Positions 18,485-52,759 of a DNA stretch of 64,000 nt are shown here, in pieces; position 1 is the first letter of the stretch, and each line of letters opens with the position of its first letter. Location: positions 18,786,001-18,850,000 of the forward strand of contig JANJGN010000019.1 in NCBI GenBank assembly GCA_026770705.1, read 5' to 3'. Under the pieces are notes generated by a model. That model did not search any database and was not told where the DNA came from. It saw nothing but the letters and a program-made list of their open reading frames with translations. The stretch comes from Isurus oxyrinchus. Its lineage: Eukaryota. The position numbers and the translations under genes were made by a program.

Positions 18485-18763
<279 letters not shown>

Positions 18764-23199: not shown

Positions 23200-23767
23200 T
23201 AAAATAAAAGCAAAATACTGCAGATACTGGAGACCTGAAATAAAAACAGAAAATGCTGAAAAAACTCAGCAGGCCTGGCAGCATCTATGGAGAGGGGAAC
23301 AGAGTTAACGTTTCAAGCCCAATATGACTCTTCCTTGGAACCAGATAGAGGTAGAAATATGAAGAGTTTTATGCCGTTGAATAAAGGGGTGGAGCAGGTG
23401 GAGCAGAATAGACGATCAGGAGTAGGTTGGAGGACAGAAGAGTTTAAATGACAAAGATGTCATGGAACAAATGACAAAGGAAGTGATAATGATAGTATTA
23501 AAGACTAAAGCTTTGATTCAGAATAGGTATTAACAGCAGAAAAAGGGCCAGTACTGTCTGAAAGCAAAACGTGAGAACAAGATACAGACTGGCGCTAGGG
23601 AGAAAAGGATCGAAATGGAGGACAGAGTTCATGGTCTGAAGTTGTTAAAGTCAATGTTGAGTCCAGAAGGCTGTGAAGTGCTTAACTGGAAGCGAAGGTG
23701 CTGTTCCTCCAGCTTGTGTTGGGCTTCACTGGAACATTGTAGCAGGCCGAGGACAGAAACGTGAGCC
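23200..23767 (-). mobile_element. Penelope-like element 3' end (older subfamily) with degenerate hammerhead at about 23301-23341
   Basis: Minus strand encodes a GIY-YIG C-terminus (GLLQCSSEAQHKLEEQHL...QPSGLNIDFNNFR), followed by ...gaagagtc-atatt-gggcttgaaacgttaactc. Confidence 0.8.
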
Positions 23768-24136
23768 ATTGTTTGTGTGTTGGTGCTTGAGTGCTTACTT
23801 CAGAATCCAGGGAAACAGGATCGAAGGAAACAAGATTGAAACCCTGTGAGGTGGCCAATTGTTGATGCTGTCCGAGTTGGAGAAACTTTTGGAGAGAATG
23901 CCAGGTTAGATCTTCGAAAGTGAAGACTGGAATCCCTCCTGAGAGAGGCAGAGTTTCATGAGATTGGCTAACTCACAGTGTTACTGACACCTGGGTGGGT
24001 TGTTGAGAAATCCGTGGGCACTGTCTTGGTCGCATTTGCCAATAATTGTGTAGTGTGATGTGTTCGACCACCGTTTGCTTGTTAATTCACATGTACCTCA
24101 TATTTATCCTGAATGAGTATAAGTTTATTTTTATAT

Positions 24137-24769
24137 AAAAACAAAAAACTGCGGATGCTGGAAATCCAAAACAAAAACAGAATTACCTGGAAAAACTCAG
24201 CAGGTCTGGCAGCATCGGTGGAGAAGAAAAAAGTTGACGTTTCGAGTCCTCATGACCCTTCAACAGAACTGAGTGAAATTAGGAGAGGGGTGAAATATAA
24301 GCTGGTTTAAGGTTGTTGGGGGGGGGTTGAGGAGAGAGAAGTGGGGTGGGGGGGGGATGTGGTTGTAGGGACAAGCAAGCAGTCATAGGAGCAGATAATC
24401 AAAAGATGTCACAGACAAAAGAACAAAGAGGTGTTGAAGGTGGTGATATTATCTAAACGAATGTGCTAATTAAGAATGGATGGCAGGACACACAAGGTAC
24501 AGCTCTAGTGGGGGTGGGGTGGAATAAGACTAACCGAGCATAAAAGGTATAGATTTAAAAATGATGGAAATAGGTGGAAAAGAAAAATCTATATAAATTA
24601 TTGGAAAAAACAAAAGGGAGGGGGAAGAAACGGAAAGGGGGTGGGGATGGAGGAGGGAGCTCAAGATCTAAAGTTGTTGAATTCAATATTCAGTGTGGAA
24701 GGCTGTAAAGTGCCTAGTCGGAAGATGAGGTGCTGTTCCTCCAGTTTGCGTTGGGCTTCACTGGAACAT
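24137..24769 (-). mobile_element. Penelope-like element 3' end / pseudo-LTR (young subfamily)
   Basis: CSSEAQRKLEEQHLIFRLGTLQPSTLNIEFNNFRS* at 24661-24768. The tail is near-identical to the copies at 35.5 kb and 45-46 kb. Confidence 0.88.
24232..24270 (-). ncRNA. Minimal type-I hammerhead ribozyme-like motif (core CUGUUGA)
   Basis: AGUU CUGUUGA A GGGUC AUGAG GACUC GAAA C GUC AACU. Confidence 0.6.
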
Positions 24770-28850: not shown

Positions 28851-30418
28851 TGGACAGGCTTTGGGGCATCAGGAGGCAAGTTACTCACCACAGGATTCCT
28901 AGCCTCTGACCGGCTCTTGTAGCCACAGTATTTATACGGCTAGTCCAGTTCAGTTTCTGGTCAATGGTAACCCCCAGGATGTTGATAGTGGGGGATTCAG
29001 TGATGGTAATGCCATTGAAAGTCATAGGGCGATGATTGCATTCTCTCTTGTTGGAGATGGTCATTGTCTGGCACTTGTGTGGCTCACCCCTTGTCAGCCC
29101 AAGCCTGGATTTTGTCCAGGTCTTGCTGCATTTGGACATTTTTTTTATTCATTCACAGGATGTGGGCTTTGCTGGCTGGGCCAACATTTATTGCCCATCT
29201 CTGGTTGCCCTTGAGCAGATGGTGGTGAATCGTTTTCTTGAATCGCTGCAGTCCATGTGATGTAGGTACACCCACAGTGCTGTTAGGAAGGGAGTTCCAG
29301 GATTTTGACCCAGCGACAGTGAAGGAACAGCAATAAATTTCCAAGTCAGTGACTTGAAGGGGAATTTTCAGGTGGTGCTGTTCTCATCTACCTGCTGTCC
29401 TTGTCCTTCTAGATTGTAGTGGTCATGGGTTTAGAAGGTGCTGTCGAAGGAGCCTTGGTGAATTCCTGCAGTGCGTCTAGTGGATGGTAGTCCAAGCTGC
29501 TACTGTACATCGGTGGTGGAGGGAGTGAATGTTTGTGGATATGGTGCCAATCAAGTGGGCTGCTTTGTCCTGGACGGTGTCCAGCTTCTTGAGTGTTGTG
29601 GAAGCTGCACTCATCCAGACAAGTGAGGAGTATTCCATCACACTCCTGACTTGTGCCTTGTAGATCTGTGAACAGACTTTGGGGAGTCAGGAGGTGAGTG
29701 ACCCTGGATTGCCCGACACTTGTGTGGCAGGAATGTTACTTGCCACTTGGCAGCTCAAGCCTGGATATTGTCCAGTTCTTGCTGAATTTGGACATGGACT
29801 GCTTCAGTATCTGAGGAGTCGCAAATGATGCTGAGCATTGTGCAATCATCAGCGAACATCCCCACTTCTGACCTTATGATGGAAGGAAGGTCATTGTTGA
29901 AGCAGCTGAAGATTGTTGAGCCAAGGACACTACTCTGAGGAAATCCTGCAGTGATGTCCTGGTGTTGACATGACTGACCGCCAACAACCACAACCATGTT
30001 CCGTTGTGCTAGGTATGACTCCAACCAGGGCAGAGTTTTCTCCATGGTTCCCACTGATTCCAGTTTTGCTAGGGGTCTTTGATGCCACACTCAGTAAAAT
30101 GCTGCCTTGATGTCAAGGGCAGTCACTCTCACCTCACCTCGGAAGCTCAGCTCTTTTGTCCATGTTTGAACTAAGGCTGTAATGAGGTCAGGAGCTGAAT
30201 GGCCCTGGCGGAACCCAAACTGAGCATTAGTAAGCAGGTTATTGCTAAGCAAGTGCCACTTGATAACACTGTTGACGACCTCTTCCATCACTTTACTGAT
30301 CATTGAGCCTAGACTGATGGGGCAGTAATTGGCCGGGTTGGTTTTGTCCTGCTTTTTGTGTACAGGCCATACCTGGGCAATTTTCCATATAGCTGCATAA
30401 ATGCCAGTGGTGTACAGG
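28850..30418 (-). mobile_element. Non-LTR retrotransposon fragments of the same family as 5970-7184, in permuted order
   Basis: WKIAQVWPVHKKQDKTNPANYCPISL, LDIKAAF and MFADDCT motifs; a 3' tail lies internally at about 29138-29210. Confidence 0.9.
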
Positions 30419-31314
30419 AACATCTTGAGCTCACTCCAGCTGTCCCTTCCTCTCAAGGAGTCAACCAGGGGCCTTTGAGAACCCATAGGGAGGAGGATCA
30501 GAAGATGCACACCCCGGGGCCATCCACCCAAGTGACTCTGGGAGTGACTGACCCAACCAAATCCCCCCTTTCTGTGACTTCAGCAGCTCCAGATCCACAG
30601 GCTGAGGAGGATGGCACACAGCAGGACACCAAGAGCAGGCTGGGGCCCTTCAGAGGATGCCCGCCAAGCTCATCACAGACAACAGGATGTAGTAGTCAGC
30701 AGGCCACCCTCACCTCTGCTGTGGGTATTGGGGGAGCACCAAGACGTAGTGGCAGGGTTAGTAAGGTCATGAAGGCTTAGTTACACAACGTAGGCACGGG
30801 TGTTAATCAGTTGTACTTAATATCAACCATTTTAAATATGCTCTCCTTGACTATGGCCCCCTGTTATGTTGAGTAGTGCTCATATCAAGCAGTGCGTCTA
30901 GCACAAAGCGAAGGCTACTGTCACAGTCTAGGGCCTCTCCCCTGTGCAGAGTGTAACCTTTTGAGCACAGTGATTGTCCGGCTTCAAAATCACTGTCCAG
31001 ATGAGAGACATCCACCTCCATGTGGCTTGTGTTTGCTGCAAGAATCTCGTACCCAAGCGTCAATGGGTTCCATAATGTTCTCTGTGTGCTCTCAGCACCT
31101 TTGAGGTGGGGCTGCCCTCCCATCTTGACAGCATTCCTGACAGGTGAAGGTGTGGTGTTGAAGGGAACAGGTGATGAAGCCTGACAAAGTATCAGGTTGT
31201 CTTCAAGTACATGCGGCCGCTGTTTCTTAGCAACGTCTCAATGATCGAGCCTCCTCACAGAGCGTAAGTGCACTTACTTAGGTGTCAGACGTTCCCAGAT
31301 GCAATATGGAGACC

Positions 31315-31821
31315 TCAGGAGTGTCCTCGCTGCATCTTTTCATCATCATCCTGGAATCTTGCGGCAATGAAGGCCTCACGTCTACGCTTGCCTCGTCTGG
31401 CCTCATCGCCTGCACCCTCACCAACCTTATCCACTTCCACCTCCTCCTCAGAGGAGACATGCAGCTCTTGCATCTCCTCATCATCCAGATCCGCCCCACT
31501 TTGCATTGCCAGGTTGTGTAGTGTGCAGCTCCCTCTGGGGAGTGTACTGCAGTGCTCCACCAGATCTGTCCAGGCATTGGAATATCATTTTCAGGATGCC
31601 AATGGTGTGCTCAACCAAACCTAGGGTTGGGGCATGAGCTTCGTTGTTCCTTCTCTCACCAGGAGTCTGAGGCTGCCGCACAGGTGTCATCAGCCATGTC
31701 CCTTGTGGGTAGCCATTGTCCCCGAGGAGCCACCCCTGCAACCCGTGTGGTCCCTGGAAGATGTCATGGGTCTGAGGCCTGCTGAGGATGTACGAGTCAT
31801 GGACACTTCCAGAGTATCTTG

Positions 31822-31852
<31 letters not shown>

Positions 31853-32917
31853 CTGCATGATCCGTTTGTTATGGTCGCAGACCAGTTGAACATTGAGAGA
31901 GTGGAAGCCTTTACAGTTCACATACTGGACTACTTGTTGCCAGGGAGATTTAAGAGCCATGTGGGTGCAGTCGTTGGCACCCTGCACCTCTGGGAATCCA
32001 GAAATCTGAGCAAATTCCAGGTGTACAAGATTATGAGGGGCATGGACAGGGTGGATAGGGAGCAGCTGTTCCCCATAGTTGAAGGGTCAGTCACGAGGGG
32101 ACATAAGTTCAAGGTGAGGGGCAGGAGATTTAGGGGGGATGTGAGGAAAAACTCTTTTACCCAGAGGGTGGTGACGGTCTGGAATGCACTGCCTGGGAGG
32201 GTGATTGAGGCGGGTTGCCTCACATCCTTTAAAAAGTACTTGGATGAGTACTTAGCACATCATAACATTCAAGGCTGTGGGCCAAGTGCTGATAAATAGG
32301 ATTAGGTAGGTAGGTCAGGTGTTTCTCACATGTCGGTGCAAACTCGATGGGCCGAAGGGCCTCTTCTGCATTGTGTAATTCTGTGATTCTGATTCCCTTG
32401 CTTCCTGGCTTGCCTGATCCCTGTCCCAAGGTGAGTGCCTTGGCAAAAAGGGTGTCCGTGACTTCCTGGATACATTTGTGGGTGATGACTTGCAAGACCC
32501 AGCAAAGGTCTCCAGTGGAGCCCTGAAAGGAGCCACTGTCATAGAAATTGAGCATGGCGATAACTTTAACTGTCAATGACAATGGATGCCCTCTGAGCTG
32601 CCGTGGTGCCAAATGCTGCCGAAGGTGACATATATACGTGACCAGTTCTCTTGACACGCACAGGCGGCCGGCGACAGTGGTTCTCGCCTATCTGCAGATA
32701 GCACCTGCACCGTCGGTGGACCCTGGGTCTAGTGATGTACCTACGAATAACAGCTCTGTGGGGCTCATCTTGCTACGTGCAGAGGAGGCTGTGCTGCCTC
32801 TTGGTCTTCAGGGTTCTGCTCCTCCCTTTGGCGAGCCAGGTGCCTCCATTGCATTCTTCTCCTTCTTCTCTCCTGCCTATAGGCAATGAGGCAGACAGCG
32901 AGATCACCAGACTCCAT
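31315..32917 (-). pseudogene. HARBI1-like DDE transposase pseudogene
   Basis: Motifs LNFYDSGSFQ, GFPEVQGANDCTH, NCKGFHSLNVQLVCD, YSGSVHDSYIL, LLGDNGYP and VEHTIGILK.IFQCLDRSGGALQY, plus an acidic C-terminus. Disrupted by stops, frameshifts, a CR1 insertion and a (CA)n tract. Confidence 0.9.
32018..32390 (+). mobile_element. CR1 3' end inserted into the Harbinger transposase
   Basis: VYKIMRGMDRVDREQLFP...FTQRVVTVWNALP; tail attctgtgattctg. Confidence 0.9.
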
Positions 32918-34856
32918 GTTCCTGATGGTCCCCTCATTGCAGTATCAAAGAGAGAGACGCAAGGGTCAGCAACTGTCTCCTAAGGGCCACTCTTGGTTAA
33001 GCCATCACCGGCAGCTGCCTCTCAAGGCCCCTTAATGCATGCTGGAGAGTCCAGGCCCACACGTGGATGCCCAGTGTTTAATGCACTGTGCCCACACCCA
33101 GCACTACCCCATACATGACCGAGTGGCGGCAGCTTTGGCCACTGGACTACACCCTGAACTCTCAATCTCAGGCACAGACATTTTCTCAACCTGGACTCCA
33201 AGGCTTTGTGGTTTGCTTGAGGCTGGCTTTTCAATATCAACTGAAATATAATGCAAGGGGCTAGGAGCGTACCCCTCCGTTAATGTTCGATGGCCACCTT
33301 TCCCAACGGGATCCTCAGACTTGCCCAGTCACGCAATGGTTCTGCAGCACCATAGCATTCATTCCAGTTTGAAGTGTGCTCGTGAGGGGTTAACAGTAGA
33401 GGAGCAATCATTGGCACTGTGAGGAATTAGTGCTGTTGAGTGGGCACAGTTGTTAGACTAGGCTGACTCCAAGCATGTCACTTGAGGTCAAGCTAAACGC
33501 TCTCAGCTGCAGTGGAGTGCTCATCTTTGACATGTTTTGCCATTAGATGGGCCATTTTCATTCCCCCACCCTGTCCCCACCCAAGTGTGTTTGCTTAAAT
33601 TTCAGTCGGTGTTACCATGACCACCCTCCAAGAATTGTTGCCCTTACCTCAAGGTTCCCTTCCCCCCCTTTGCACTGTTGCCCTTGCTCCAGGGCCACAA
33701 GCCAGTCGTGAAGAAGCCGCTGCGGAGACCTGCCTGTGGCCCCTCGGCCCCCCCCCCCCCCCCGCCGCCGAATCCGCAGAGCTGCAGGGTTCATCGTCAG
33801 CGCAGCGCAAAGTCGTGTGCCACTCGCCTCCGAGTTTCCCTCGAAATTGAGGTCAGCAGGTTCACACCTTTTAGAGGCAATTGTAAATCACGCCATTGTG
33901 ACATTACGCTGTCGCGGCATTTAAATTTGACATTGTGGGTGGGGGGATGATTCTGCCGTGTGGCCACAATAATTAGATGCAAATTCAATACAATTAAGTT
34001 GCCCGTGTTCGATGGCGGGTACCATGGCCCGCCATTGCTGGGGGTGGGGGAGGGGGATAATCACGTCCCGAATTAACGATATTGGGAAATGCGACTAGGG
34101 CCTACTCGCGTGATTCTTCGATCTTGCCGCCGAACACACCCACTCCGAACAAGGGCCAGAAGATTCCGGCCTATGATTTTTCTCCTGGATTGCTCACTGA
34201 GGTGATCCAGAGCTTAGATTTTAATTCCTGGAGATTGCAGGGCAGTCCTAGGGGGTCGGCAACCCAATAGAATGGCAGCAGTCTAAGGATGCATAGAACC
34301 CAGAAGGGCAGATTTTCCTACCCCGCCTCCACCCACCCCACCATCCCCTCTCCCTTCTAGACAGGGACAGTTCGTTAAAAGTTGGAACTTGCTGATTATC
34401 AAGGTTTTAGCTTAGTTGTTTACTTAGAGGAAACATTTTGATAAGAAACTCACAACTTGGTTGGAATGGAGACTCATGCCAGTGTTTTGCTACACCATGA
34501 AAGTAATAGCTGTGCAAAAGTGTTTTTTTGAATAGGATACTGCCCCGGCAAGGAGGGTTTTTTTTTGTGGCTTCCTATTCTCCCAGTGTTAATCAGTGGA
34601 AGCACAAGTGGTTGTCTTAGAAAGCATTGAATATTTAGCCAAACTGCTCCCCAGACACTGCTTAATGGTAGTTAATTTCAGTGATTGCCAAATGTTTTCA
34701 ACAGTTAAGCACTTGATTCAAAGTGACCAAGATTGACTTTAGTGAAATGTGGGCATTAATTTTATTGTGCCTACAATACGATGAATGCAGAACCAAAAGA
34801 GGGTCTGAAGTCATTAACATCAGCCATTTCAAACGCCTGAAGTTCAGCTTTGGCTT

Positions 34857-35120
34857 TGTTATATTCTTCTCTTCAGCGTAAGTGTACCAATCGTACAACA
34901 AAGACTGGTGAAACAATAATGGTGGTCTTTTATTTGAAGATAAGGCTATATGCAAATAGAGTTAACTAGGAGAGGCTAAATATAGTACATCTGATCTCGA
35001 CTCCTGTTGCTTGTGGACAAGCCATGTGACTAGTGCATCACACCCTGTCGAGGTAGCAGTGATTGACTGCAGTTTGAAAATATCACACCCTTAAAGGTAC
35101 ACATTCCTCATATCACACCA
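34857..35120 (-). mobile_element. Candidate solo LTR
   Basis: TG...CA termini, GGCTT direct repeat on both sides (34852-34856 and 35121-35125), and AATAAA on the minus strand at 34929-34934. Confidence 0.55.
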
Positions 35121-35557
35121 GGCTTTTGGTGGCTGATAGATAGTACACTGGTCACCCATTCCCGTGGTGAGGATTTGGAGGCCCTGGCCTCATTTTGTGT
35201 GCAGCCAGTCCGGAGGCCAGCGGAGTAGTCCAAGGTAGCTGACCAGCTTTGACCCACAGGAAGGTGGACCTGCTGAGACACTGGAGATTGCACCCTGCAG
35301 TTTTTATTTCGTTGCTACCCAGAGGAGCAGTTATTCTTCTCTTAGCCTCTCAAAAATAATATCAAACTTACCTTCTCAGAGCCTCTTCAGCTCTACTGCC
35401 CACAAAACCCATCAGTTTAATGCTAAAATGGCATGTGAGGCTCTATGTATATAATAAAAACAAAAAAACTGCGGATGATGGAAATCCAAAACAAAAACAA
35501 AAACAGAATTACCTGGAAAAACTCAGCAGGTCTGGCAGCATCGGCGGAGAAGAAAAG

Positions 35558-35596
35558 AGTTGACGTTTCGAGTCCTCATGACCCTTCGACAGAACT
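35558..35596 (-). ncRNA. Minimal hammerhead ribozyme-like motif (core CUGUCGA)
   Basis: AGUU CUGUCGA A GGGUC AUGAG GACUC GAAA C GUC AACU. Confidence 0.65.
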
Positions 35597-35792
35597 TGAG
35601 TTCGAGTCCAAGAAAGAGTTGAAATATAAGCTGGTTTAAGGTGTGTGTGTGGGGGGCGGAGAGAGAGAGAGAGAGAGAGAGGTGGAGTGGGGGTGTGGTT
35701 GTAGGGACAAACAAGCAGTGATAGAAGCAAAACAAAAACAGAATTACCTGGAAAAACTCAGCAGGTCTGGCAGCATCGGCGGAGAAGAAAAG

Positions 35793-35831
35793 AGTTGACG
35801 TTTCGAGTCCTCATGACCCTTCGACAGAACT
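35793..35831 (-). ncRNA. Minimal hammerhead ribozyme-like motif, identical tandem copy
   Basis: Same 39-mer as 35558-35596, offset by 235 nt. Confidence 0.65.
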
Positions 35832-36577
35832 TGAGTTCGAGTCCAAGAAGCATCAAAAGATGTCAACAACAATAATACAAAAGAACACATAGGTGTTAAA
35901 GTTAAAGTTGGTGATATTATCTAAACGAATGTGCTAATTAAGAATGGATGGTAGGGCACTCAAGGTATAGCTCTAGTGGGGGTGGAGGGAGCATAAAAGA
36001 TGTAAAAATAAATAAATAATTTTTTTTTTTCTCTTTTTATAATGGAAATAGGTGGGAAAAGGAAAATCTATATAATTTATTGGGAAAAAAAAGAGAAAAG
36101 GAAGGGGGAAACAGAAAGGGGGTGGGGATGGGGGAGGGAGCTCACGATCTAAAGTTGTTGAATTCAATATTCAGTCCGGAAGGCTGTAAAGTGCCTAGTC
36201 GGAAGATGAGGTGTTGTTCCTCCAGTTTGCGTTGGGCTTCACTGGAACAATGCAGCAAGCCAAGGACAGACATGTGGGCAAGAGAGCAGGGTCTTTTATG
36301 CTCTCCCCACCCCCACTAGAGCTATACCTTGAGTGCCCTACCATCCATTCTTAATTAGCACATTCGTTGAGATAATATCACCAACTTTAACTTTAACACC
36401 TATGTGTTCTTTTGTATTATTGTTGTTGACATCTTTTGATGATCTGCTTCTATCACTGCTTGTTTGTCCCTACAACCACACTCCCACTCCACCTCTCTCT
36501 CTCTCTCTCTCTCTCCGCCCCCCACACACACACCTTAAACCAGCTTATATTTCAACTCTTTCTTGGACTCGAATTCA

Positions 36578-36616
36578 AGTTCTGTCGAAGGGTCATGAGG
36601 ACTCGAAATGTCAACT
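36578..36616 (+). ncRNA. Minimal hammerhead ribozyme-like motif in the inverted pseudo-LTR (GAAAUGUC variant)
   Basis: agttctgtcgaagggtcatgaggactcgaaatgtcaact. Confidence 0.55.
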
Positions 36617-37639
36617 CTTTTCTTCTCCGCCGATGCTGCCAGACCTGCTGAGTTTTTCCAGGTAATTTGTTTTTGTTCTATGTATATCATGGTTGGCAAA
36701 TTGCAAGTTAATAGTGGCTTATCATAGTGGTGTGCTTTTTATAGACACACAGCAGTAAGCACCTTTCAAAAATGGCACCTGTCGCATTGTCAGGGATAAT
36801 AACATAAGAAACAGGAGCTGGGGTAGGCCATTTGGCCCTTTCAGCACTGCCATTCAACAAGATCAAGGCTGATCTTCTATCTCAACTGTACCGACCCCAT
36901 TCAGAGGCCCATTTTTGAGGCGGTCAAAAAAACCTGACTCTCTTCTTTCAATTAGCCTTCCTGTGTTGCATTGGAAGGTATTATTCATTCGCCTTTTCTC
37001 AGCGATGATAATTATTCACTGTCACAGCATACGTTAATTTTCTTCTCAAAGGGATTTTTTATTTTAGCAATGAGTTGTGAGCAACAGTGTGCAACAATCC
37101 AAAACTCATTTATTTTCAGCGAACATTCTGCCCAGAGTCTAAACAAAAGATCTCATCCATAACAACAGAATCCAGGCATTCGTTCTCACATGCCAAAGAT
37201 CAGCGAGTTTAACTGGTGCCAGCAGCAGTCATGAATTATTTGCTCTTTCATACTTGTGTTAACCTTATCATAGCTGGTGAATTTTTTTTCTCTGATAATA
37301 ATATAAAGGATCTGGAATTATGTAAGCATTATGGGGCAGGCTGTCCAGTTCCTGTTCCTGTAAATTCCTCCAGCTCTATAACCCACCGAGATCTGTGCTC
37401 CTCCATTCCTGGCTTCTTACACATCTCCAATTTTCACTGTTCCATCACTGGTGGCTAGGAATTCAGCCCAAGGCGAAAGGACCTTATGAGTGAGTGAACT
37501 GTGAGCTCATTGTTGGTGGGTTTATTTGATTTCTATGTGCTTGGCCAGAAACTCTGAGTTGTATGCCAGGATTTTTCGGACCAGCCAGGCAGGGACCAGA
37601 AGATCCCAGTGGTGGGCGAGGCTGGAAAATCCCAGCCAT

Positions 37640-38390
37640 CGAGTCATTGCACCACAGAAGGAGGCCATTCAGCCTATCAAGTCCATGCCAGCTCTCCATA
37701 AAGCACCCAATCAGTGCCATTCCCATGCTCCACCCCTGTAGCCCTGCAAGTTTTTCCCTCAAGTGCAGATCCAATTTCCTCTTGAAATCATTCATCATCT
37801 CTATTTCCACCACCCTCGTAGGATGCAAGTTCCAGGTCATAAGCACTCAGTGCAAAATTAAATTCTTCCTCATCTCCCTCTGCCTCTCTTGCACAAAACC
37901 TTAAATCTGTATCCCCTAGTCTTTGTACTAGCAGCTAATGAGAAGTTTTTCTTTCTCCACCTTAACTCGACCCATCACAACTTGTACGCCTCTATCAAAT
38001 CTCCCCTCATATGCTTTTGCTCCAAGGAGAACAATCCCAGTTTCTCCAACCTAACCTAGTAGCTAAAATCCCTCATCCCTGGAACCATGCCAGTAAAGCT
38101 ACTCCCTCAAGGGCCCTCCCTTCCTAAAATATGGCAACTGGATGCAATACTCTAGTTCTAACCTAGCCAAAGTTTCTGCATAACTTTCCTGCTTTTGTAC
38201 TCAATACCTTTATTTATGGATCTCAAAATTCCACATGCTTTGCTAATTACTCTCTCAATTTGTCCTCCCAACTTCAAAGGTCTATGCATATGAACCCCAA
38301 GGTTCCTCTGCACCTACACATTATTTAGAACTGTGCCCTTGAGTTTAAATCATCTCTTCCTATCCCTTCTGTCAAAATGCATTAAATACT
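37640..38390 (-). mobile_element. CR1 LINE 3' fragment, preceded by a roughly 70-bp mini-MITE (37565-37636)
   Basis: WNLHPTRVVE...FKRKLD motif on the minus strand. The mini-element ends are gccaggattttt / aaaatcccagcc. Confidence 0.75.
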
Positions 38391-39612
38391 TTCTTCACCA
38401 GTAGAAGAGTGGGAATATGAAAGTCATCCTATCCTGTGAGGAGATGTCATTTTCTTGTATCCCTATTGTTATTAGGAGTGTATGAGGAGAAGTGTGTTAT
38501 GAAAGATGTTATTCAAGACAGTTACAGTAGGACACAGGGCATAAAAATTTAGCCACTCAGTGCCTGTTTCTCTGGCGGTGATTGGCCTCTAATCATCCAA
38601 TATTGCAAGAGGTACATGGACATTTCCAGCTGCAAGTGCACCACCCACCATATTGGACGAGGTGGTTATAAGGCCCGGTAATTAGGACCAACAATCAACA
38701 GTGATTGAGGGTGGCACAGAATGCAATCTCAAAAATGGGCACAGCAGAATTCCTAGGCCAAGAATTCTGCATTGCAGGCAGGCCCAGTAACAAATGGAGA
38801 TACACGTTGCTGTTTTCGCAATGATGTTAGTACTGGAAGTTGGCTGGATGCATGTTGCCTTAGCCTCGCTGGCACCCTTACAACAAGTTCAAATGCAGCC
38901 AAACCAGGACCCACATGTGCATATTTGTGGTTTCCCACAAATCTGCTGTAAACAAGATAGATTTATGACTGAATTAGAGCATGGTGCACATGTTTTAAAG
39001 AATGGGGTAAAGCTTTGTGCAACAGTGTAAAATGAGTAATTGCGAGTCAGAATTCTCTTTTTCATCTCTCCTGATATTTTATTTCTAATGAAATCAGTGG
39101 AAAGAAGAAAAGGGAGGGATGTTTTGTACTGTTGAACAAAGTCAAGATTTACCTGCATCACTCTCCACATCTCCCAACTCATGCACAATGCGGACTTGTA
39201 AAATCATCTCTGGTGTTCAGATGTGAACACCATGGTGGAGAAATATAGTGCTGCATCATAGCCTTATCTTGATTCCCTGTGGGCACATAGTGCCATGCAT
39301 GTCACCCACGCTGTGTTCTTCAATGTTATCAATAGCCCCTCAATTTGAAACCATTAAATAAGTTGAACTTTAACATGTCCCAATGAGATTTTTTGTAACG
39401 AGCACTTATTCTTTGCATACTTGCACTCCCTGAACCTCAAAACACTACCTCAGGACAGCAACATGCCCCAAAAACTCTGCAGAGCGTAAAGAAATTGTTC
39501 TGCGATGGTACTTGACAGAATGTTCTGCTTCCTATTGCCAAAATCCAAACAAAACGAGAATTCAGAAGCCATTTGAAATGTAAGCACAAATTAATTACCT
39601 TAGAGAGTGAGC

Positions 39613-42200
39613 ATAGGAACATAGGAACAGGAGTAGGCCATGCAGCCCTTCAAGCCTGCTCCACCATTCAATATGATCGTGGCTGATCATCTACTTCAAT
39701 GCCTTATCCCACGCCATTGCCCTATCCCTTTTTGTCATTGACAGATTTCTAAATACCAATCTCTGCTTTAAACATATGCAATGACTGATCTTCCACAGCC
39801 CTCTTGGATAGGGAATTCCAAAGATTCAGAACCCTCTGAGTAAAAGAATATCTCCTCATCTCAAACTTAAGTGGCTTCCTCATTTTGAAATTGTGTTCCC
39901 TGGTTCTAGACTCCCTGACCAGGGGAAACATCTTACCTGCATCCACCCAGTCTATTTCTTTAAGTATTTTGTAGGTTTCCTCGAGATCACCTCATTTTTC
40001 AAAACTCTAGAGAATACAGGCCTAGTTTTCCCAATCTCTCTTCATAGGACAGTCTTGCCAACCCAGGAACAAATCTCATGAACCTTTGCTGTACTCCCTC
40101 TATGGCAATAATATCCATCCTAAGGTAAGTGGACCAAAACTATGCACAGCACTCCTGGTATGGTCTAAACAAAATTCTATACAATTGAAGCAAGACTTTG
40201 CTACTCCTGTACTCAAATCCTCTTGCGATAAAGGCTAACTTAATTGCTTCCTGCAATTGGATGTTAACTTCAGTGACATATTGACAAGGACATCCAGGTC
40301 CCTTTGTGCATCTATACTTTTTAATCTCCCACCATCTAAGAAGTACTCTGCACATCTGTTCCTCCTACCAAAGTGGATAACTTAATTTTTCCACATTATA
40401 TTCCATCTATTATGTTCTTGCCCACTCACGAAGTCTGTCCAAAGCCCCTTGAAGCCACTTTGCATCTTCCTTACAACACATTCCCATCTAGTTTTGTGTC
40501 ATCCACGAACTTGGAAATATTACATTTGGTCCCCACATCCAAATCATTGATTTATATTGTGAACAGCTGGAGCCCAAGTACTGATCCCTGCTGTACCCAG
40601 CTAGTCACTAGACTGCCAGTGCGAGAATGACCCATTTATTCCAACTCTGCTTTCTGTTTGTTAATCAATCCTTAATCCATGCCAGTATATTATCACCTCC
40701 TATTCCATGTGCTTTAATCTTGCTAACCAACCTCCTGTGGGGGACTTTATCAACAGCCTTCAGAAAATGCAAATATACTACTTCCACCGACTTTCCTTTA
40801 ATCAATTCTGTTAGTAACATCCTCAAAAATCTCAACAGGTTCATCAAACATGATTTCATATTCATAAATCCATGTTGAATATGCCAAATCAGATCATTAT
40901 CCAAGTGTCCATTCATCACATCCTTTATAACAGATTCCAGCATTTTCCCTAGTGCTGATGTAAGGCTAACAGGTCAGTATTTCCTGATTCTTTTCCCCCT
41001 TGCCCTTCCTTCAATAGTGGGGTGACATTTGCTACATTCCAATCTGCAGGAACATTCCAGAATCGATAGAATTTTGGGAAGTGGTCACCAATGCATTCAC
41101 ATTCTTCGTAGCTACCTCTTTCAACACTCTGGGATGTAGAATATCAGGTCCTGAGGACTTTTCAACATTCAGTCCCATTAATTTCTCCAACACACGTTTT
41201 TACTCATACTAATTTCCTTCAATTCCTCATTCTCCCTAGTCCCTTGCATCTCTAATTCTGGGAGATTTCTCAGTGAGGACAGACACAAAGCAATCATTTA
41301 GCTTCTCTGCCATTTCTCTATTCCCCATTAAAAATTCTCCTGACTCTACTTGTAATGGACTCACATTTGTCTTAGCCAAACATTTCCTTTTTACATGCCT
41401 ATAGAAGATTTTAAAGTCTATTAATGTTTTTGCCAGTTTATATTCATATTCTATTCTCCTGTTCTTTATCAGTTTCTTAGTCCTCTTTTACTGTATTCTA
41501 AAATGCTCCTAATCCTGAGATTTACTACTATTTCTGGCAACTTTATAGGACTTTTTGTTTAATTTTATACAATCCTTAACTTCCTTTGTTGGTCATGGCT
41601 GACTGACTTTTCTTTTTTGGGTTTTTGTGCCTTGAAAGAATGTATAATTGCTGTAAACTATATAATAATTCTTTAAGACTATCCATTATCGATTTACCAC
41701 CGTGCCTTTTAATGTGTTTTGCCAATCTGCCTCAGCTAATTTGCACCTCATATCTTCATCATTTCCTCTGTTCAAATTTTAACACCCTGGCTTCAGATTG
41801 AACTACCTTGCTTTTAAACATAGTGTGAAATTCTATCCTATTATGGTCACTCATCCCTAAAGTTTCTCTTACAACAAGATTATTCAATAGTTCTTTCTCA
41901 TTACATAATACTAGATCTAAAATAGCCTGTTATCTAGTCAAAACCCTCTCTGCCTGCATGCTCCTAACTGTAGTGTGACCACCTCTCTGAACATGCTATT
42001 CAGATAGTTCTCTGACTCACAGATGCAGCACAGTAACTCCAGCTGCCACTTGAATTCCAAAACCCAGAGCTCAAACTTCTGCAGCTGGTGACACTTCCTG
42101 CAGATGTGTTCCTCTCGGGCACATGGTACATCCATGATTTCGCACATATCACAGGATGGACATTCCACTCAGCCAAGCTGACCTGCCATACCCGCAAAGA
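39613..42200 (-). mobile_element. Long degenerate CR1 LINE: ORF2 remnants (about 39613-41936) plus an ORF1 zinc-finger remnant (41938-42190)
   Basis: QHGF..MKSCL.NLL and FLKAVDKVPHRRL motifs; tail cataggaacataggaaca; CPSCDMCE...HICRKCHQL followed by a coiled-coil-like stretch. Confidence 0.85.
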
Positions 42201-44520: not shown

Positions 44521-45192
44521 TTTTCTTTGTTAAGGCTCAGTATATATGCAGATTGTTGTTCCAATGAATGCTGAGTCTCCTTGTACATTAATATTTAAAT
44601 CATTCACCAACAATGCATCGTACTGCAGTACTGCTTTGTTCTAATCATCCACAATGGATAACAGCAACTCTTTGAGCGAGGGAGGTCCATTTGCTCCCAA
44701 GGACAGTATAAATGTGAAAGTCCTTCAGAAATTGTTGGCCATACATTGGTTGTGGCCACACAAGCGTCAGTCAACACCTCTTTACAATGCAACACTTTCA
44801 TTAGCTGTTTATTTACAATGATTGTGCATGAGTTTTGTGTTAGCACCCTTACAGCTACTGACCATCTCAGGTCCCATGGCGGAACTCCATCTCCTGATAA
44901 CATCCCTTTCAGACCAGAAGTGGTTGTTTTGTGATCTGCCTTTGTTGCGTGTATGACACCTAATGTCCCTAGAATCTTCTAAGGAAGAAATCTGACACAC
45001 TGATTAAATTTAACAAGGTCAATGAGCTTGGCATTTGCCTCTGTAACGGTGTGCCAAAAGTAAAGACACCTACACACACAGACACAAAAAGCTTTTGCCT
45101 TCTGATGTTCTATCCAATAGTTATATCTCAAACAAAAACAGAATTACCTGGAAAAACTCAGCAGGTCTGGCAGCATCGGCGGAGAAGAAAAG

Positions 45193-45231
45193 AGTTGACG
45201 TTTCGAGTCTTCATGACCCTTCGACAGAACT
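45193..45231 (-). ncRNA. Minimal hammerhead ribozyme-like motif (core CUGUCGA)
   Basis: AGUU CUGUCGA A GGGUC AUGAA GACUC GAAA C GUC AACU. Confidence 0.62.
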
Positions 45232-45468
45232 TGATTTCGAGTCCAAGAAAGAGTTGAAATATAAGCTGGTTTAAGGTGTGTGTGTGGGGGGGCAGAGAGA
45301 GAGAGAGAGAGACAGAGGTGCTTGTGTAGACAAACAAGCAGTGATAGCAGTCCTATCACTGCTTGTTTGTCTACACAAGCACCTCTGTCTCTCTCTCTCT
45401 CTCTCTGCCCCCCCACACACACACCTTAAACCAGCTTATATTTCAACTCTTTCTTGGACTCGAAATCA

Positions 45469-45507
45469 AGTTCTGTCGAAGGGTCATGAAGACTCGAAAC
45501 GTCAACT
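45469..45507 (+). ncRNA. Minimal hammerhead ribozyme-like motif (core CUGUCGA)
   Basis: agttctgtcgaagggtcatgaagactcgaaacgtcaact. Confidence 0.62.
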
Positions 45508-46173
45508 CTTTTCTTCTCCGCCGATGCTGCCAGACCTGCTGAGTTTTTCCAGGTAATTCTGTTTTTGTTTTGGATTTCCAGCATCCGCAGTTTTCTTTGA
45601 TTTTATCTCTGTGTTTAATTGACTGCCACTGCTCTTCAAGAAATGCCTACCTCCTTGAAGAAGTTCTGTTCCTCTCTGCGACAAGATTTCCGTATCTCTC
45701 TGTTGCCTTGTTCACCTTCTTTGCTTTCCATTTCCCTCCTAGTGTTTGACAAGGTGTTTACTAAAACCCGCTTTCACAGCCATATCTCCTTTCTCAGTGA
45801 CTGCCTCCGTCTCCGACTTACCCCACGTGGATTTCAACTGAAATTCCACCCCTCATCTTTCGAACCCACCCAGGATTACCGGTATCTCCGGGACATAAAA
45901 CGTTTCTCAGACTGCTGTTCCCATCACATTCTGAAATCCACACTCAGTGCCATGCGCCGCCATATGAACACACTCGACCTCTCCCTCCAGCAGCACCGCC
46001 GTACCCTTTCTCAAAGCTGCGCGTGCCCCCAGTTTCATTTTATCCTTCGGCTCATCCCTATCACTGCTTGTTTGTCTACACAAGCACCTCTGTCTCTCTC
46101 TCTCTCTCTCTGCCCCCCCACACACACACCTTAAACCAGCTTATATTTCAACTCTTTCTTGGACTCGAAATCA

Positions 46174-46212
46174 AGTTCTGCCGAAGGGTCATGAAGACTC
46201 GAAACGTCAACT
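46174..46212 (+). ncRNA. Minimal hammerhead ribozyme-like motif (core CUGCCGA)
   Basis: agttctgccgaagggtcatgaagactcgaaacgtcaact. Confidence 0.6.
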
Positions 46213-47007
46213 CTTTTCTTCTCCGCCGATGCTGCCAGACCTGCTGAGTTTTTCCAGGTAATTCTGTTTTTGTTTTGGATTTCCAGCATCCGCAGTTTTC
46301 TTTGATTTTATCTCTGAGTTATATCTCAAACACTATCATTAAAACAGGTTATCTGGTTATTATCATGTTGTTGTTTCTGGGACCTTTCTGTGTGTAAATT
46401 GCCTGCAATGTTAATATTTCCTACATTACAACAAGGACCTCACTTAAAAAGCACTTAATTGCCTTTAAAATGCTTTGCGCTGACCTGAGGGAAATAAAAT
46501 GCTTGTAACTGTAGAAGTGACTGGGAAGCTGTTGGATTGTAAATAAGGTCAACTAATGCCCTTTAGCAACAGAAATCTGACATCCAAGACAATCTATATG
46601 CAATTCTAATCCAATGTCAATGTGGCTGACTAAAGTGCCTTCTGAAGTGGCCTAGCAAGCTATTCAGTTGTATCAAACCACTGCCAACAACTATAGAAGA
46701 AGCTGAACACCTTCTTAGGGCAACTAGGGATGGGCAATAAATGTTGGTCTTATCTGTACCATAGGCCATTATTCAATAAGAAAGATATACAACTTTCATG
46801 TGGTCACTTTTGTTCCATAAATTAACATAAAATATGCAATCTTTAAATAACTTCAATTTTTTTCACTCACGCTAGAAGAAATCATTTATAAACGACAAAT
46901 AGTTTGCTAACAGCCATAATGCCAGAAACGAACGGGACAAGCCAATTAAGTTAATTCCAGCTTTCTCCAACTCCTAAGAGGGTAGGCATGGGGCAAAGTC
47001 TAATAAC

Positions 47008-50638: not shown

Positions 50639-52036
50639 AAACCAGGAGAAGAAACAGTAACAGAGTAACAAAGAGAGCCCTGTGGTTATACAAATAATCT
50701 AACATATCAGAGCCCACTGGCTATTGGCAAGTGCAACACTGATCAGAAAATATTTCTCCATAGATGTGAGGAAAACAGCCATTGCCAAACAGATCTATGC
50801 AATTCAGTTTAACTTCACCTAATCTTAACCTCATTATATTTCAATTCTCTCATTCTCCAGAAAGCATCAAGTTGCCTCTTGGCTTGTTTATGGCCTTCCC
50901 TAATTACTTCTCCCACACATACTCTGTGGGCAAAAATATTCTACCTAACATTCTCCCTCCTTACTCTGAGTTTTCTCATTTTAACCTCCATTCCCTGGTA
51001 TCTGAATTTATAGGGCTGGATTTTTCTTTTTGAGGTGGGAGTCACCAGTTGGGAGATTTCTGGACATCATGATCGCACCTCCTGCCCAGCAGTGCCTATC
51101 CACGCTATTTTCATGGTGGGGTGGTGTGGAGGGGCTGGGGTTGGGCAGCCACCTCCCGAAGCAGGCCCAAGATGGGAGCAGAGGTGGATGGTTACTGAGA
51201 CGAACAGTTTAAAAGGCCCACCTCCAATCGGCCCAGTTCTGTACATGTGTATTAGGCACCCTAGCCCTCACTCCTCACCCCCTCACCTCCATGTCCCCTC
51301 CATGCCCTCATGCCACCTCATATCCCCATGCCCCCTCCATGCTCCCATGCCTCTCCCTATGCCGCTTAATATCCCCATTCTTCCCTCTCCCATGGCCCCC
51401 TTTTCCCACCATGCCCACTCACCAAATATCCACTTTGCACAGAACCCATGTACGTTATAATAACATTGGGAATTCTTTGAGATGCTCAAGAAACTGTTGA
51501 AATAAACAAACAGCCATTCAGAAACTTCTTTAAAATATCTTGATCCTCCCAGGAGCTCATAAAACTGTCATTCAAATGCACAGCCAGTCAAACTCTGCTT
51601 GAAAATACCATAATCCTCTTAAAGTGGTCATAAAACTATCAAAATAAACAAATACCCATTCAAAACTCTCTTCAAAAAACAATCTTCTTAGGAGTTCATA
51701 AAACTTTCTATCAAAACAGAGCTCAAAATCTCTTTGACAGCTGTATCAAAAACCCCTGCTGAGCTGAATCCGTTTTTGGGGTTTAGAGATTAGCCACTTA
51801 ACAGTCTTCACTTTTTTCCTTTCCCTGCATCATTAAGTAGGAATATGACTATGTACCAGATGATTCGTGCTCCTATATTATGCTTTGTAATTTTATTCAT
51901 ACCAGTACAGTAGAGGATGCTAAAAAAACCTTCAAAAATACACTACTTCTTTCAGGTTTAAAAAGCAGGATCATTTAGGTGGGAGCAAGTAAGCAAGTTC
52001 ATTTTGCAGCCCTTGATTAATAAAGCAGCGACATAC

Positions 52037-52303
52037 CCACACAGTTGTTATTATCATCTAGGGTGTAGCCAAAACGACAGACCAGAGATCTCGGGGGAAC
52101 AGGATATCTGGGTATTGAGGCTGGTTGGTAGCCGGAAGTTTCAGAGCGCCCTGTTGGTGAAGATGCAGGGTATGTTGGGTTGGATGGTCCATTTGCCAGG
52201 ACAAGTGCAGCAGTCCTGGGCAAGCACAAGTATCCACCATTGTGATTGATACATCTCATGTCCCCTTTACAGGCATCTGGGATGGTTTGGCACTCGTTGA
52301 CAT
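52037..52303 (-). CDS. fbln5: Fibulin-5 exon (human exon 4 equivalent): modified first cbEGF domain with Pro/Ser-rich insertion
   Basis: ctccacag|AT GTC AAC GAG TGC...TGT GTG G|gtatgt; 267 nt. Encodes [31 protein letters not shown]...[25 protein letters not shown]; the C-terminal part matches FBLN5 (RPLICRFGYQMDESNQCV). Confidence 0.96.
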
Positions 52304-52759
52304 CTGTGGAGATTTTAAAAAGAGAACAATTGAGAGGTCACTTTGACTTTTACTCATTGTCCTTGTTGGCCACTTGCCTACATAAACTCACTTGAGCATT
52401 TGCAATTCTTCTACCAGCAGTTTTGTCTTATTGAGTCACTGAGTGGTTGCCATAATAGGATTTGACTATCCTTCTCCCTCCCTAATAAAAAGTATGGCAA
52501 TCAATGGATCATTCCACCAGCAGAGTGTGATCTGAAATCATGGTGACACAGATCCAGTGCTAAAATAGAGGGACGGTGTGATGTTCAGCAAGGTTTCAGC
52601 ATCATGGGTACAAGTGCTGCACTGTTAGAGTGCCACCTTTTGGTTGTGAAGTTAAATCAAGATCTTTTTTCCTGGTTTGGATGGAGGTTAAAAATTCCAT
52701 AGCAATATTTGAAGAGCAGGGAGCGCTGCAAATGTGCTGGCAGACGTTCCTCCATCAAG

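What the first reader, a model, noticed from the sequence alone, without database searches (positions are those of the whole stretch)
35558..35831. Tandem pair of minimal hammerhead ribozymes lying sense in the fbln5 pre-mRNA
Seen: two identical 39-nt motifs (stem I AGUU/AACU, core CUGUCGA-A, stem II GGGUC/GACUC, GAAA-C-GUC) sit 235 nt apart on the minus strand, the strand fbln5 is transcribed from. Known: Penelope pseudo-LTRs carry minimal type-I hammerheads whose helix III is a short palindrome (here ACGU), and these cleave mainly as dimers. Inferred: the tandem duplication supplies a cis dimer that could cut intron 4 co-transcriptionally at 35797/35796 and 35562/35561, releasing a 235-nt retrozyme-like monomer. 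The antisense copy at 36578-36616 is transcribed first and could mask one partner, giving a built-in antisense switch.
Basis: partly seen in the sequence, partly recalled or inferred. Interest (0 to 1): 0.72.

Follow-up and report, generated by a model that had tools for sequence, protein, structure and literature searches.

The report
Shark Penelope insertion, altered-core hammerheads
This is a recent jumping-gene insertion in a shark fibulin-5 intron; its two self-cutting-RNA motifs carry a changed letter in the catalytic core and are predicted to be locked into a duplex by a neighbouring inverted copy, so they likely do not cut the host RNA.

Summary
The two 39-nt motifs are real, identical, 235 nt apart and sense in fbln5 intron 4. 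They are the pseudo-LTR hammerhead of a Penelope-like element with 52,044 exact genomic copies. The locus is a 1.2-kb 5'-truncated-plus-inverted insertion with an 11-bp target duplication; the site is empty in a related species with ~97.5% identical flanks. The pair is not a 235-nt duplication: a 116-nt copy sits in a recurrent site of the pseudo-LTR (junction found 86 times; 145 same-strand pair matches). Against cleavage: core position 6 is U, not the conserved A; the dimer fold is predicted to cost ~25 kcal/mol, ~306 with the inverted arm, which masks one copy throughout transcription. So a constitutive block, not a switch. No cleavage or RNA-end data could be obtained. The one notable point: U6 is fixed in ~75,000 copies and kept through at least four subfamilies; no paper found describes it, but a key paper was unavailable. 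The scan has filed similar shark Penelope hammerhead pairs before, in this and other genomes.

The parts
35442..35452 (+). Left copy of the 11-bp target-site duplication
   Evidence: The 11-mer occurs only at 35442 and 36677 in the window; the empty site in organism B holds it once
35453..36676 (.). Whole Penelope-like insertion (1,224 bp): 5'-truncated 3' end on the minus strand plus an inverted truncated copy
35558..35596 (-). Hammerhead motif B (native pseudo-LTR position), core CUGUCGA with U at position 6; predicted cut 35562/35561
   Evidence: 97% predicted paired to the inverted arm in the full RNA
35730..35845 (-). 116-nt extra copy of the hammerhead-plus-tail segment, set into the pseudo-LTR and flanked by a 7-nt repeat (35852-35846 and 35729-35723)
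   Evidence: 3' junction exact at 86 places, 5' junction unique, flanking repeats of 7-13 nt at 4 of 14 junctions examined
35793..35831 (-). Hammerhead motif A, identical to B; predicted cut 35797/35796
   Evidence: 97% predicted paired to the arm while B is not yet transcribed
36142..36291 (-). Last 49 codons and stop of the element's RT/GIY-YIG ORF
   Evidence: Same residues as the C-terminus of the intact ORF in L011
36292..36676 (+). Inverted 5'-truncated copy (3' UTR, pseudo-LTR, tail); antisense in the fbln5 pre-mRNA and transcribed first
   Evidence: Arms 94-98% complementary; 389 predicted base pairs with the sense part
36578..36616 (+). Hammerhead motif in the inverted copy (one change in helix III)
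36677..36687 (+). Right copy of the target-site duplication
52032..52304 (-). fbln5 exon upstream of the intron (residues 48-138 of catshark fibulin-5)
18512..18637 (-). fbln5 exon downstream of the intron (residues 136-177)

Best explanation
The two motifs are passengers of a young Penelope-like retrotransposon insertion in fbln5 intron 4, and they likely do not cut the pre-mRNA, because the core has U in place of the conserved A6 and the inverted arm is predicted to hold one of the two copies in a long duplex. Shown: element identity, target-site duplication, empty site in a related species, copy numbers, the U6 base, the recurrent junction. Inferred: the insertion arose by target-primed reverse transcription with 5' truncation and fold-back inversion; the extra 116-nt copy arose when the element's machinery primed again at a preferred site in its own pseudo-LTR (same event or later, not resolved). 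Predicted only: the folding and the lack of cleavage. The RNA is most likely spliced out with the intron as a ~390-bp hairpin with one motif looped out as an inactive monomer.
For: Element: tandem full-length copies 3.3 kb apart with an open 918-codon ORF, Pfam RVT_1 E 7e-8 and GIY-YIG E 9e-4, the latter under its cut-off. Abundance: 52,044 exact 39-mers; 7 family copies in this intron alone, 4 sense and 3 antisense. Youth: in 2 of 2 organism-B contig runs laid on both flanks, one contig (2088 nt in X5, 2087 nt in X7, same depth in both calls) covers 36876-36678 at its positions 1-199 and 35452-34500 at 190-1126, i.e. the empty site. Recurrence: junction at 86 places; 145 same-strand pair matches at 221-251 nt, 11 of 17 examined having two near-intact motifs. 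Core: 75,376 non-A6 against 114 A6 copies. Mutation of A6 to C slowed one hammerhead from 0.3 to 3.55e-6 per min in 0.3 mM Mg2+ (PMC7151607); CUGA-turn mutants other than the C3-G8 swap were of low activity (PMC9901934). Folding: stem II probability about 0.01 in context; dimer cost 25 kcal/mol without and 306 with the arm, of which about 11 is intrinsic to the model. Literature: minimal PLE hammerheads inactive singly, weak as dimers (PMC4209133); 1 of 9 Xenopus dimers cleaved (bioRxiv 2026.07.22.740005); the Anolis PLE hammerhead needs the element's protein and is dispensable for insertion in vitro (PMC11167929).
Against: No cleavage assay or RNA-end data for this sequence exist here. I found no measurement of A6U itself; the data are for A6C and for a pooled statement. 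U6 has been carried through at least four subfamilies with the other core bases and stems intact, which suggests the motif is still under selection in the element. Nearest-neighbour folding ignores tertiary contacts and proteins, and sibling A6 motifs also score poorly in it (costs 3.4-11.2 kcal/mol in 11 of 12), so misfolding of the monomer is not peculiar to U6. A-to-I editing could weaken the duplex.
Confidence: 0.85

Rival explanations
1. One reading: the two motifs form a cis dimer that cuts intron 4 during transcription, releases a 235-nt monomer that may circularise, and the inverted arm acts as a switch.
For: The dimer geometry is sterically nested and can be drawn; spacing is in the retrozyme range of about 170-400 nt, and axolotl dimers do cleave and give circles (PMC7229834); both copies are identical over 121 nt.
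Against: A6U core; dimer cost 25 to 306 kcal/mol; one copy masked at each stage; insertion absent from a close relative; same arrangement at many loci; no regulator of the arm is evident.
Confidence: 0.04
2. The U6 motif is a slow but working natural variant that cleaves only inside the element's own ribonucleoprotein, in Mn2+, or in longer head-to-tail arrays; at this locus it could cut rarely, in trans or with the element's protein, without consequence for fbln5.
For: U6 persists across at least four subfamilies in which loop II, the cleavage-site base and the flanks changed (33 U6, 10 A6, 1 C6 among 44 readable cores of 77 anchors in 864 kb); natural A6C is rescued by Mn2+; the Anolis hammerhead is protein-assisted; arrays of near-identical 229- and 243-nt units exist.
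Against: No excess of insertion 5' ends at the cleavage site: 304 matches against 299 two bases downstream and 123 four bases upstream, and 10 of 30 examined still held the ribozyme's 5' half; the test is weak. Conservation may reflect promoter, splice or protein-binding roles; PLE clades without hammerheads proliferate well (PMC8557442).
Confidence: 0.25
3. The insertion affects fbln5 RNA, but as a long double-stranded hairpin (editing, pausing, small RNAs) or through the element's promoter or splice-donor-like site, not through self-cleavage.
For: 389 predicted base pairs; a donor-like CAG/GTAATT lies sense in both copies; pLTRs are described as promoters (review PMC6765202).
Against: Untested; two further inverted pairs of the family lie in the same intron; the element is 16-17 kb from either exon and is lineage-specific.
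Confidence: 0.08

Closest known systems
Minimal type I hammerheads (min-HHR) in pLTRs of metazoan Penelope-like elements (Cervera and De la Pena 2014, PMC4209133; parts 1-2 of 4 of the text read, figures not seen)
   Same: Position in the pLTR, short helix I, unpaired base between A9 and helix II, G10.1-C11.1 pair, palindromic mini helix III, mass of solo truncated copies, pairs on opposite strands
   Different: Position 6 is U; helix II is 5 bp; sharks are not named in the parts read nor in 2 of 3 supplementary files (file 1 could not be searched)
EN+ Penelope-like elements of Neptune/Nematis type (Craig et al. 2021, PMC8557442, passages; Arkhipova et al. 2013, PMC3846280, passages)
   Same: Single RT plus C-terminal GIY-YIG ORF, a CX2-5CxxC motif before the endonuclease, partial tandems, inverted 5'-truncated copy, tail, 9-11 bp target duplication
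   Different: Clade not tested by phylogeny; the nested 116-nt copy at a fixed pLTR site is a small-scale form of partial tandem
Non-LTR retrozymes (Cervera and De la Pena 2020, PMC7229834, passages; Li et al. 2026, bioRxiv 10.64898/2026.07.22.740005, part 1 of 5 and passages)
   Same: Two hammerhead motifs a few hundred nt apart, PLE-derived, vertebrate forms dimer-dependent
   Different: Only two motifs, only 121 nt repeated, still attached to ORF tail and inverted arm, non-consensus core, no evidence of RNA circles
Natural A6C hammerhead of phage Bcep176 (Perreault et al. 2011, PMC3088659, section 8 and passages; Naghdi et al. 2020, PMC7151607, parts 1-2 of 4)
   Same: Natural substitution at core position 6
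   Different: Here U, in a minimal dimer-type motif, fixed in tens of thousands of copies; activity unmeasured
Conserved intronic hammerheads of amniotes, RECK and C10orf118 (PMC3088659, PMC6155905, passages)
   Same: Type I motif, sense in an intron
   Different: Those are single, conserved across species and active as monomers; this one is young, absent from a close relative and one of 52,044 identical copies

Membership tests
EN+ Penelope-like element | Single ORF with reverse transcriptase and C-terminal GIY-YIG endonuclease | tested here: met
   Full-length relatives: 918-codon ORF, RVT_1 above cut-off, GIY-YIG E 9e-4 below cut-off; this locus keeps the last 49 codons
EN+ Penelope-like element | Pseudo-LTRs in partial tandem, inverted 5'-truncated copy, tail, target-site duplication | tested here: met
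Neptune/Nematis clade | CX2-5CxxC zinc-finger-like linker between RT and EN | tested here: met
   Motif at residue 783 of the ORF; feature as given in PMC8557442
Neptune/Nematis clade | Placement by RT phylogeny | not tested
   No reference sequences fetched, no tree built
Minimal type I hammerhead | Helices I and II and palindromic minimal helix III | tested here: met
   Sequence; stem II varies G-U/A-U among sibling families; stem II is predicted only in the isolated motif, not in context
Minimal type I hammerhead | Catalytic core CUGANGA ... GAAA ... UH | tested here: not met
   Position 6 is U in both copies and in the family (75,376 non-A against 114 A); all other core bases match
Minimal type I hammerhead | Self-cleavage as a dimer | not testable with these tools
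   Folding only; no raw RNA reads were offered
Non-LTR retrozyme | Head-to-tail units each with a complete hammerhead | tested here: not met
   121 of 235 nt repeated; non-consensus core; true arrays exist elsewhere
Non-LTR retrozyme | Linear and circular monomer RNA in tissue | not testable with these tools
Domesticated intronic hammerhead | Conserved at the orthologous site across species | tested here: not met
   Empty site in organism B

The most novel reading that the evidence does not exclude
The dominant young Penelope lineage of this shark has fixed a U at the supposedly invariant core position 6 and kept it through several subfamilies as a deliberately weakened, protein- or metal-gated hammerhead; a recurrent self-priming site in the pseudo-LTR keeps generating 220-250 nt hammerhead-to-hammerhead units, the seeds from which retrozyme arrays are born, and this locus is one such seed.
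Probability: 0.15. Interest if true: 0.55.

Novelty: new variant of a known kind. Interest (0 to 1): 0.2.

Why it matters
For fbln5 it most likely does not matter. At family level it offers a cheap test of an open question, what Penelope hammerheads are for: a highly successful lineage with intact ORFs carries a core change that is damaging in other hammerheads. If U6 is inactive, cleavage is dispensable for transposition in vivo; if it is active, the hammerhead consensus widens and tens of thousands of shark motifs are missed by standard descriptors. The recurrent junction also shows one concrete route from a Penelope pseudo-LTR to retrozyme-sized units.

Tried and rejected
Rfam scan of 30000-42000: no hammerhead family, one chance match. 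Tandem Repeats Finder reports no array at the locus. A subfamily with a built-in double hammerhead: rejected, the 5' junction is unique and 5' ends differ at each locus. Same-event versus later insertion: within-pair differences 23 of 1325 sites, cross-pair 290 of 17225, 0 of 23 variants shared; the family is too uniform to decide. Footprint of cleavage in insertion ends: none; the +2 control is inflated by one recurrent dinucleotide, and a cleaved 3' fragment may not be a template, so this is weak. U6 arising together with the upstream repeat that can pair with the core: rejected, older U6 subfamilies lack that repeat. Script stopped after 17 of 20 loci. Orientation bias of copies in genes genome-wide could not be tested without annotation. 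PDB search gave fibulin-4 as best hit and could not separate paralogues; one search did. Lunse et al. 2017 on dimeric PLE hammerhead variants is not held; I saw only its title in reference lists and a review's account, so it may already list U6. Searches for the variant in print: 'hammerhead'+'A6U', CUGUNGA/CUGUUGA/CUGUCGA, 'hammerhead ribozyme'+'shark'+'Penelope': nothing relevant in the listings. Supplements of the 2026 bioRxiv preprint were not seen and may list the chondrichthyan family.

Full report
OBSERVATION. The two motifs at 35558-35596 and 35793-35831 are identical on the minus strand and 235 nt apart; the plus-strand copy at 36578-36616 differs by one base in helix III. The host gene is fbln5: the exon at 52304-52032 is 90% identical to catshark fibulin-5, with ray and chimaera fibulin-5 next and fibulin-4/3 far behind (10 hits among 89 candidates), and tblastn places successive exons on the minus strand, leaving a 33.4-kb intron between 52032 and 18637. 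The organism is therefore likely a shark. The motifs are sense in the pre-mRNA.

WHAT THE LOCUS IS. The exact 39-mer occurs 26,036 + 26,008 = 52,044 times in the 4.98-Gb genome, the reversed control 0 times. Copies 3.3 kb apart flank an open reading frame of 918 codons from its first methionine with Pfam RVT_1 (E 7e-8) and GIY-YIG (E 9e-4, below the curated cut-off) and a CX2-5CxxC motif before the endonuclease, the mark of Neptune/Nematis elements in PMC8557442 (passages). At the locus, 36291-36142 on the minus strand encodes the last 49 residues of that ORF, followed by 3' UTR, pseudo-LTR and tail down to 35453; 36292-36676 is an inverted truncated copy. This head-to-head form is the typical Penelope insertion (PMC8557442; PMC3846280). 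An 11-bp duplication flanks it at 35442-35452 and 36677-36687. In a related species (organism B, flanks about 97.5% identical), a contig of 2088 nt in run X5 and 2087 nt in run X7 aligns to 35452-34500 at its positions 190-1126 and to 36876-36678 at positions 1-199; I take these to be the same records from equal length and depth. Position 190 maps to both 35452 and 36687, so the site is empty there. The insertion is thus young and lineage-specific. The same intron holds 7 copies of the motif, 4 sense and 3 antisense.

HOW THE PAIR AROSE. Against the full-length element, the minus-strand copy reads 3' UTR, then a 116-nt piece with hammerhead and tail (35845-35730), then the normal pseudo-LTR with its own hammerhead. 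The piece is flanked by a 7-nt repeat. Its 3' junction occurs exactly at 86 places in the genome, its 5' junction only here. Of 14 such junctions examined, 4 show a 7-13 nt repeat of the target sequence just upstream of the extra copy; most others have a longer upstream copy that the test did not span. Same-strand pairs 221-251 nt apart give 145 matches, some within arrays; 11 of 17 examined have two motifs with at most one mismatch each (script stopped before the last 3 of 20). I infer repeated priming at a preferred site of the element's own pseudo-LTR, in line with insertion into its own pLTR proposed for the Anolis element (PMC11167929, passages). Whether this happened during the first insertion or later is not resolved.

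WOULD IT CUT? Three lines argue no. First, the core. With the rest of the motif fixed, 75,376 copies have a base other than A at position 6 (98 of the 100 listed are T) and 114 have A, so U6 is the family state; sibling families with the canonical A number at least 3,768. A6C lowered one hammerhead from 0.3 to 3.55e-6 per min in 0.3 mM Mg2+, with rescue by Mn2+ (PMC7151607); a natural A6C variant ran below 0.1 per min (PMC3088659, section 8); in a full mutagenesis all CUGA-turn mutants but the C3-G8 swap were of low activity (PMC9901934, passages). I found no figure for A6U itself. Second, folding. The arm is transcribed first: copy A is 97% paired to it before B exists, and in the full RNA copy B is 97% paired within a 389-bp hairpin. 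One partner is always taken, which is a block, not a switch. Third, precedent: single minimal motifs were inactive and dimers weak (PMC4209133); 1 of 9 Xenopus dimers cleaved (bioRxiv 2026.07.22.740005); the Anolis motif cleaves only with the element's protein, is dispensable for insertion in vitro, and RNA-seq reads did not end at its site. The intron's 3' end is 17 kb away, minutes of transcription at recalled polymerase speeds, so a useful cut would need a rate far above these. Against this: axolotl dimers cleave well and give circles (PMC7229834); the folding model omits tertiary contacts and also penalises A6 siblings; nothing was measured on this sequence.

THE U6 LINEAGE. Anchoring on a conserved block outside the ribozyme in 864 kb chosen without regard to the motif gave 77 hits; 44 had a readable 5' core (33 U6, 10 A6, 1 C6) and 33 were truncated, decayed or chance. 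The U6 copies fall into at least four groups by upstream flank, loop II (AUGAG or AUUCG), position 7 and cleavage-site base, with the other core bases and both stems kept. So U6 is old within the lineage and the motif around it has not decayed, which leaves room for a slow or assisted ribozyme, or for a non-catalytic role. A genomic footprint of cleavage was not found: insertion boundaries at the cut site number 304, against 299 at +2 and 123 at -4, about 0.4% of copies, and of 30 examined 17 were fold-back junctions, 10 still carried the ribozyme's 5' half and 3 were other. Elsewhere, true arrays exist: six motifs at 229-nt spacing and a 243-nt array, units about 99% identical, built from pseudo-LTR plus the first codons; these are better retrozyme candidates than this locus.

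COMPARISON AND NOVELTY. It works like, and derives from, the minimal type I hammerheads of metazoan Penelope pseudo-LTRs (PMC4209133) but fails the core consensus at one position, so I file it as a variant. It is not a retrozyme array and not a conserved intronic hammerhead. Searches found no paper on a U6 core or on shark Penelope hammerheads; Lunse et al. 2017 was not available and may cover it; the 2026 preprint reports retrozymes in one chondrichthyan. Earlier notes of this scan describe similar doubled shark Penelope motifs as ordinary; they came after my reading was set and are not counted as evidence.

VERDICT. Observation confirmed; interpretation partly supported for origin, not for cleavage or switch. 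Best reading: an inert passenger pair in a young insertion (0.85). Interest 0.2, mostly for the family-wide U6 core.

Noticed in passing
L114:1113-2400 (G000:C10 near 93.06 Mb) and L115:729-2243 (G000:C5 near 44.81 Mb): Head-to-tail arrays of 229-nt and 243-nt units, about 99% identical, each with a full U6 motif, the tail and the first codons of the ORF; better retrozyme candidates than the fbln5 locus.
   Followed up: partly
window 35597-35612 and 35832-35845, minus strand: The youngest subfamily has a second copy of the motif's GGACUCGAA just upstream, which is predicted to pair with the 5' core or to extend stem I; older U6 and A6 subfamilies lack it.
   Followed up: partly
G000:C1, e.g. 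2424415-2424495, 3980584-3980666, 4382615-4382699: Many fold-back insertions have their inversion point within a few bases of the motif's 5' edge, suggesting a hot spot of reverse-transcriptase stalling or self-priming there.
   Followed up: no
window 45130-46311 and 23200-24768: Further truncated and inverted insertions of the same family and an older subfamily in the same fbln5 intron; the 45.1-46.3 kb one has a 705-bp internal duplication and one motif with C at position 6.
   Followed up: partly
G000:C13:3641084-3641742, C13:2852123-2852425, C9:12541039-12541635: Minisatellites of about 47 nt and 83 nt made of the 3' half of the motif, lacking the 5' core.
   Followed up: no
window near 35750 and 35515, minus strand: A splice-donor-like CAG/GTAATT follows a short upstream reading frame in each copy, sense to fbln5; possibly the element's own 5' UTR intron donor.
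   Followed up: no
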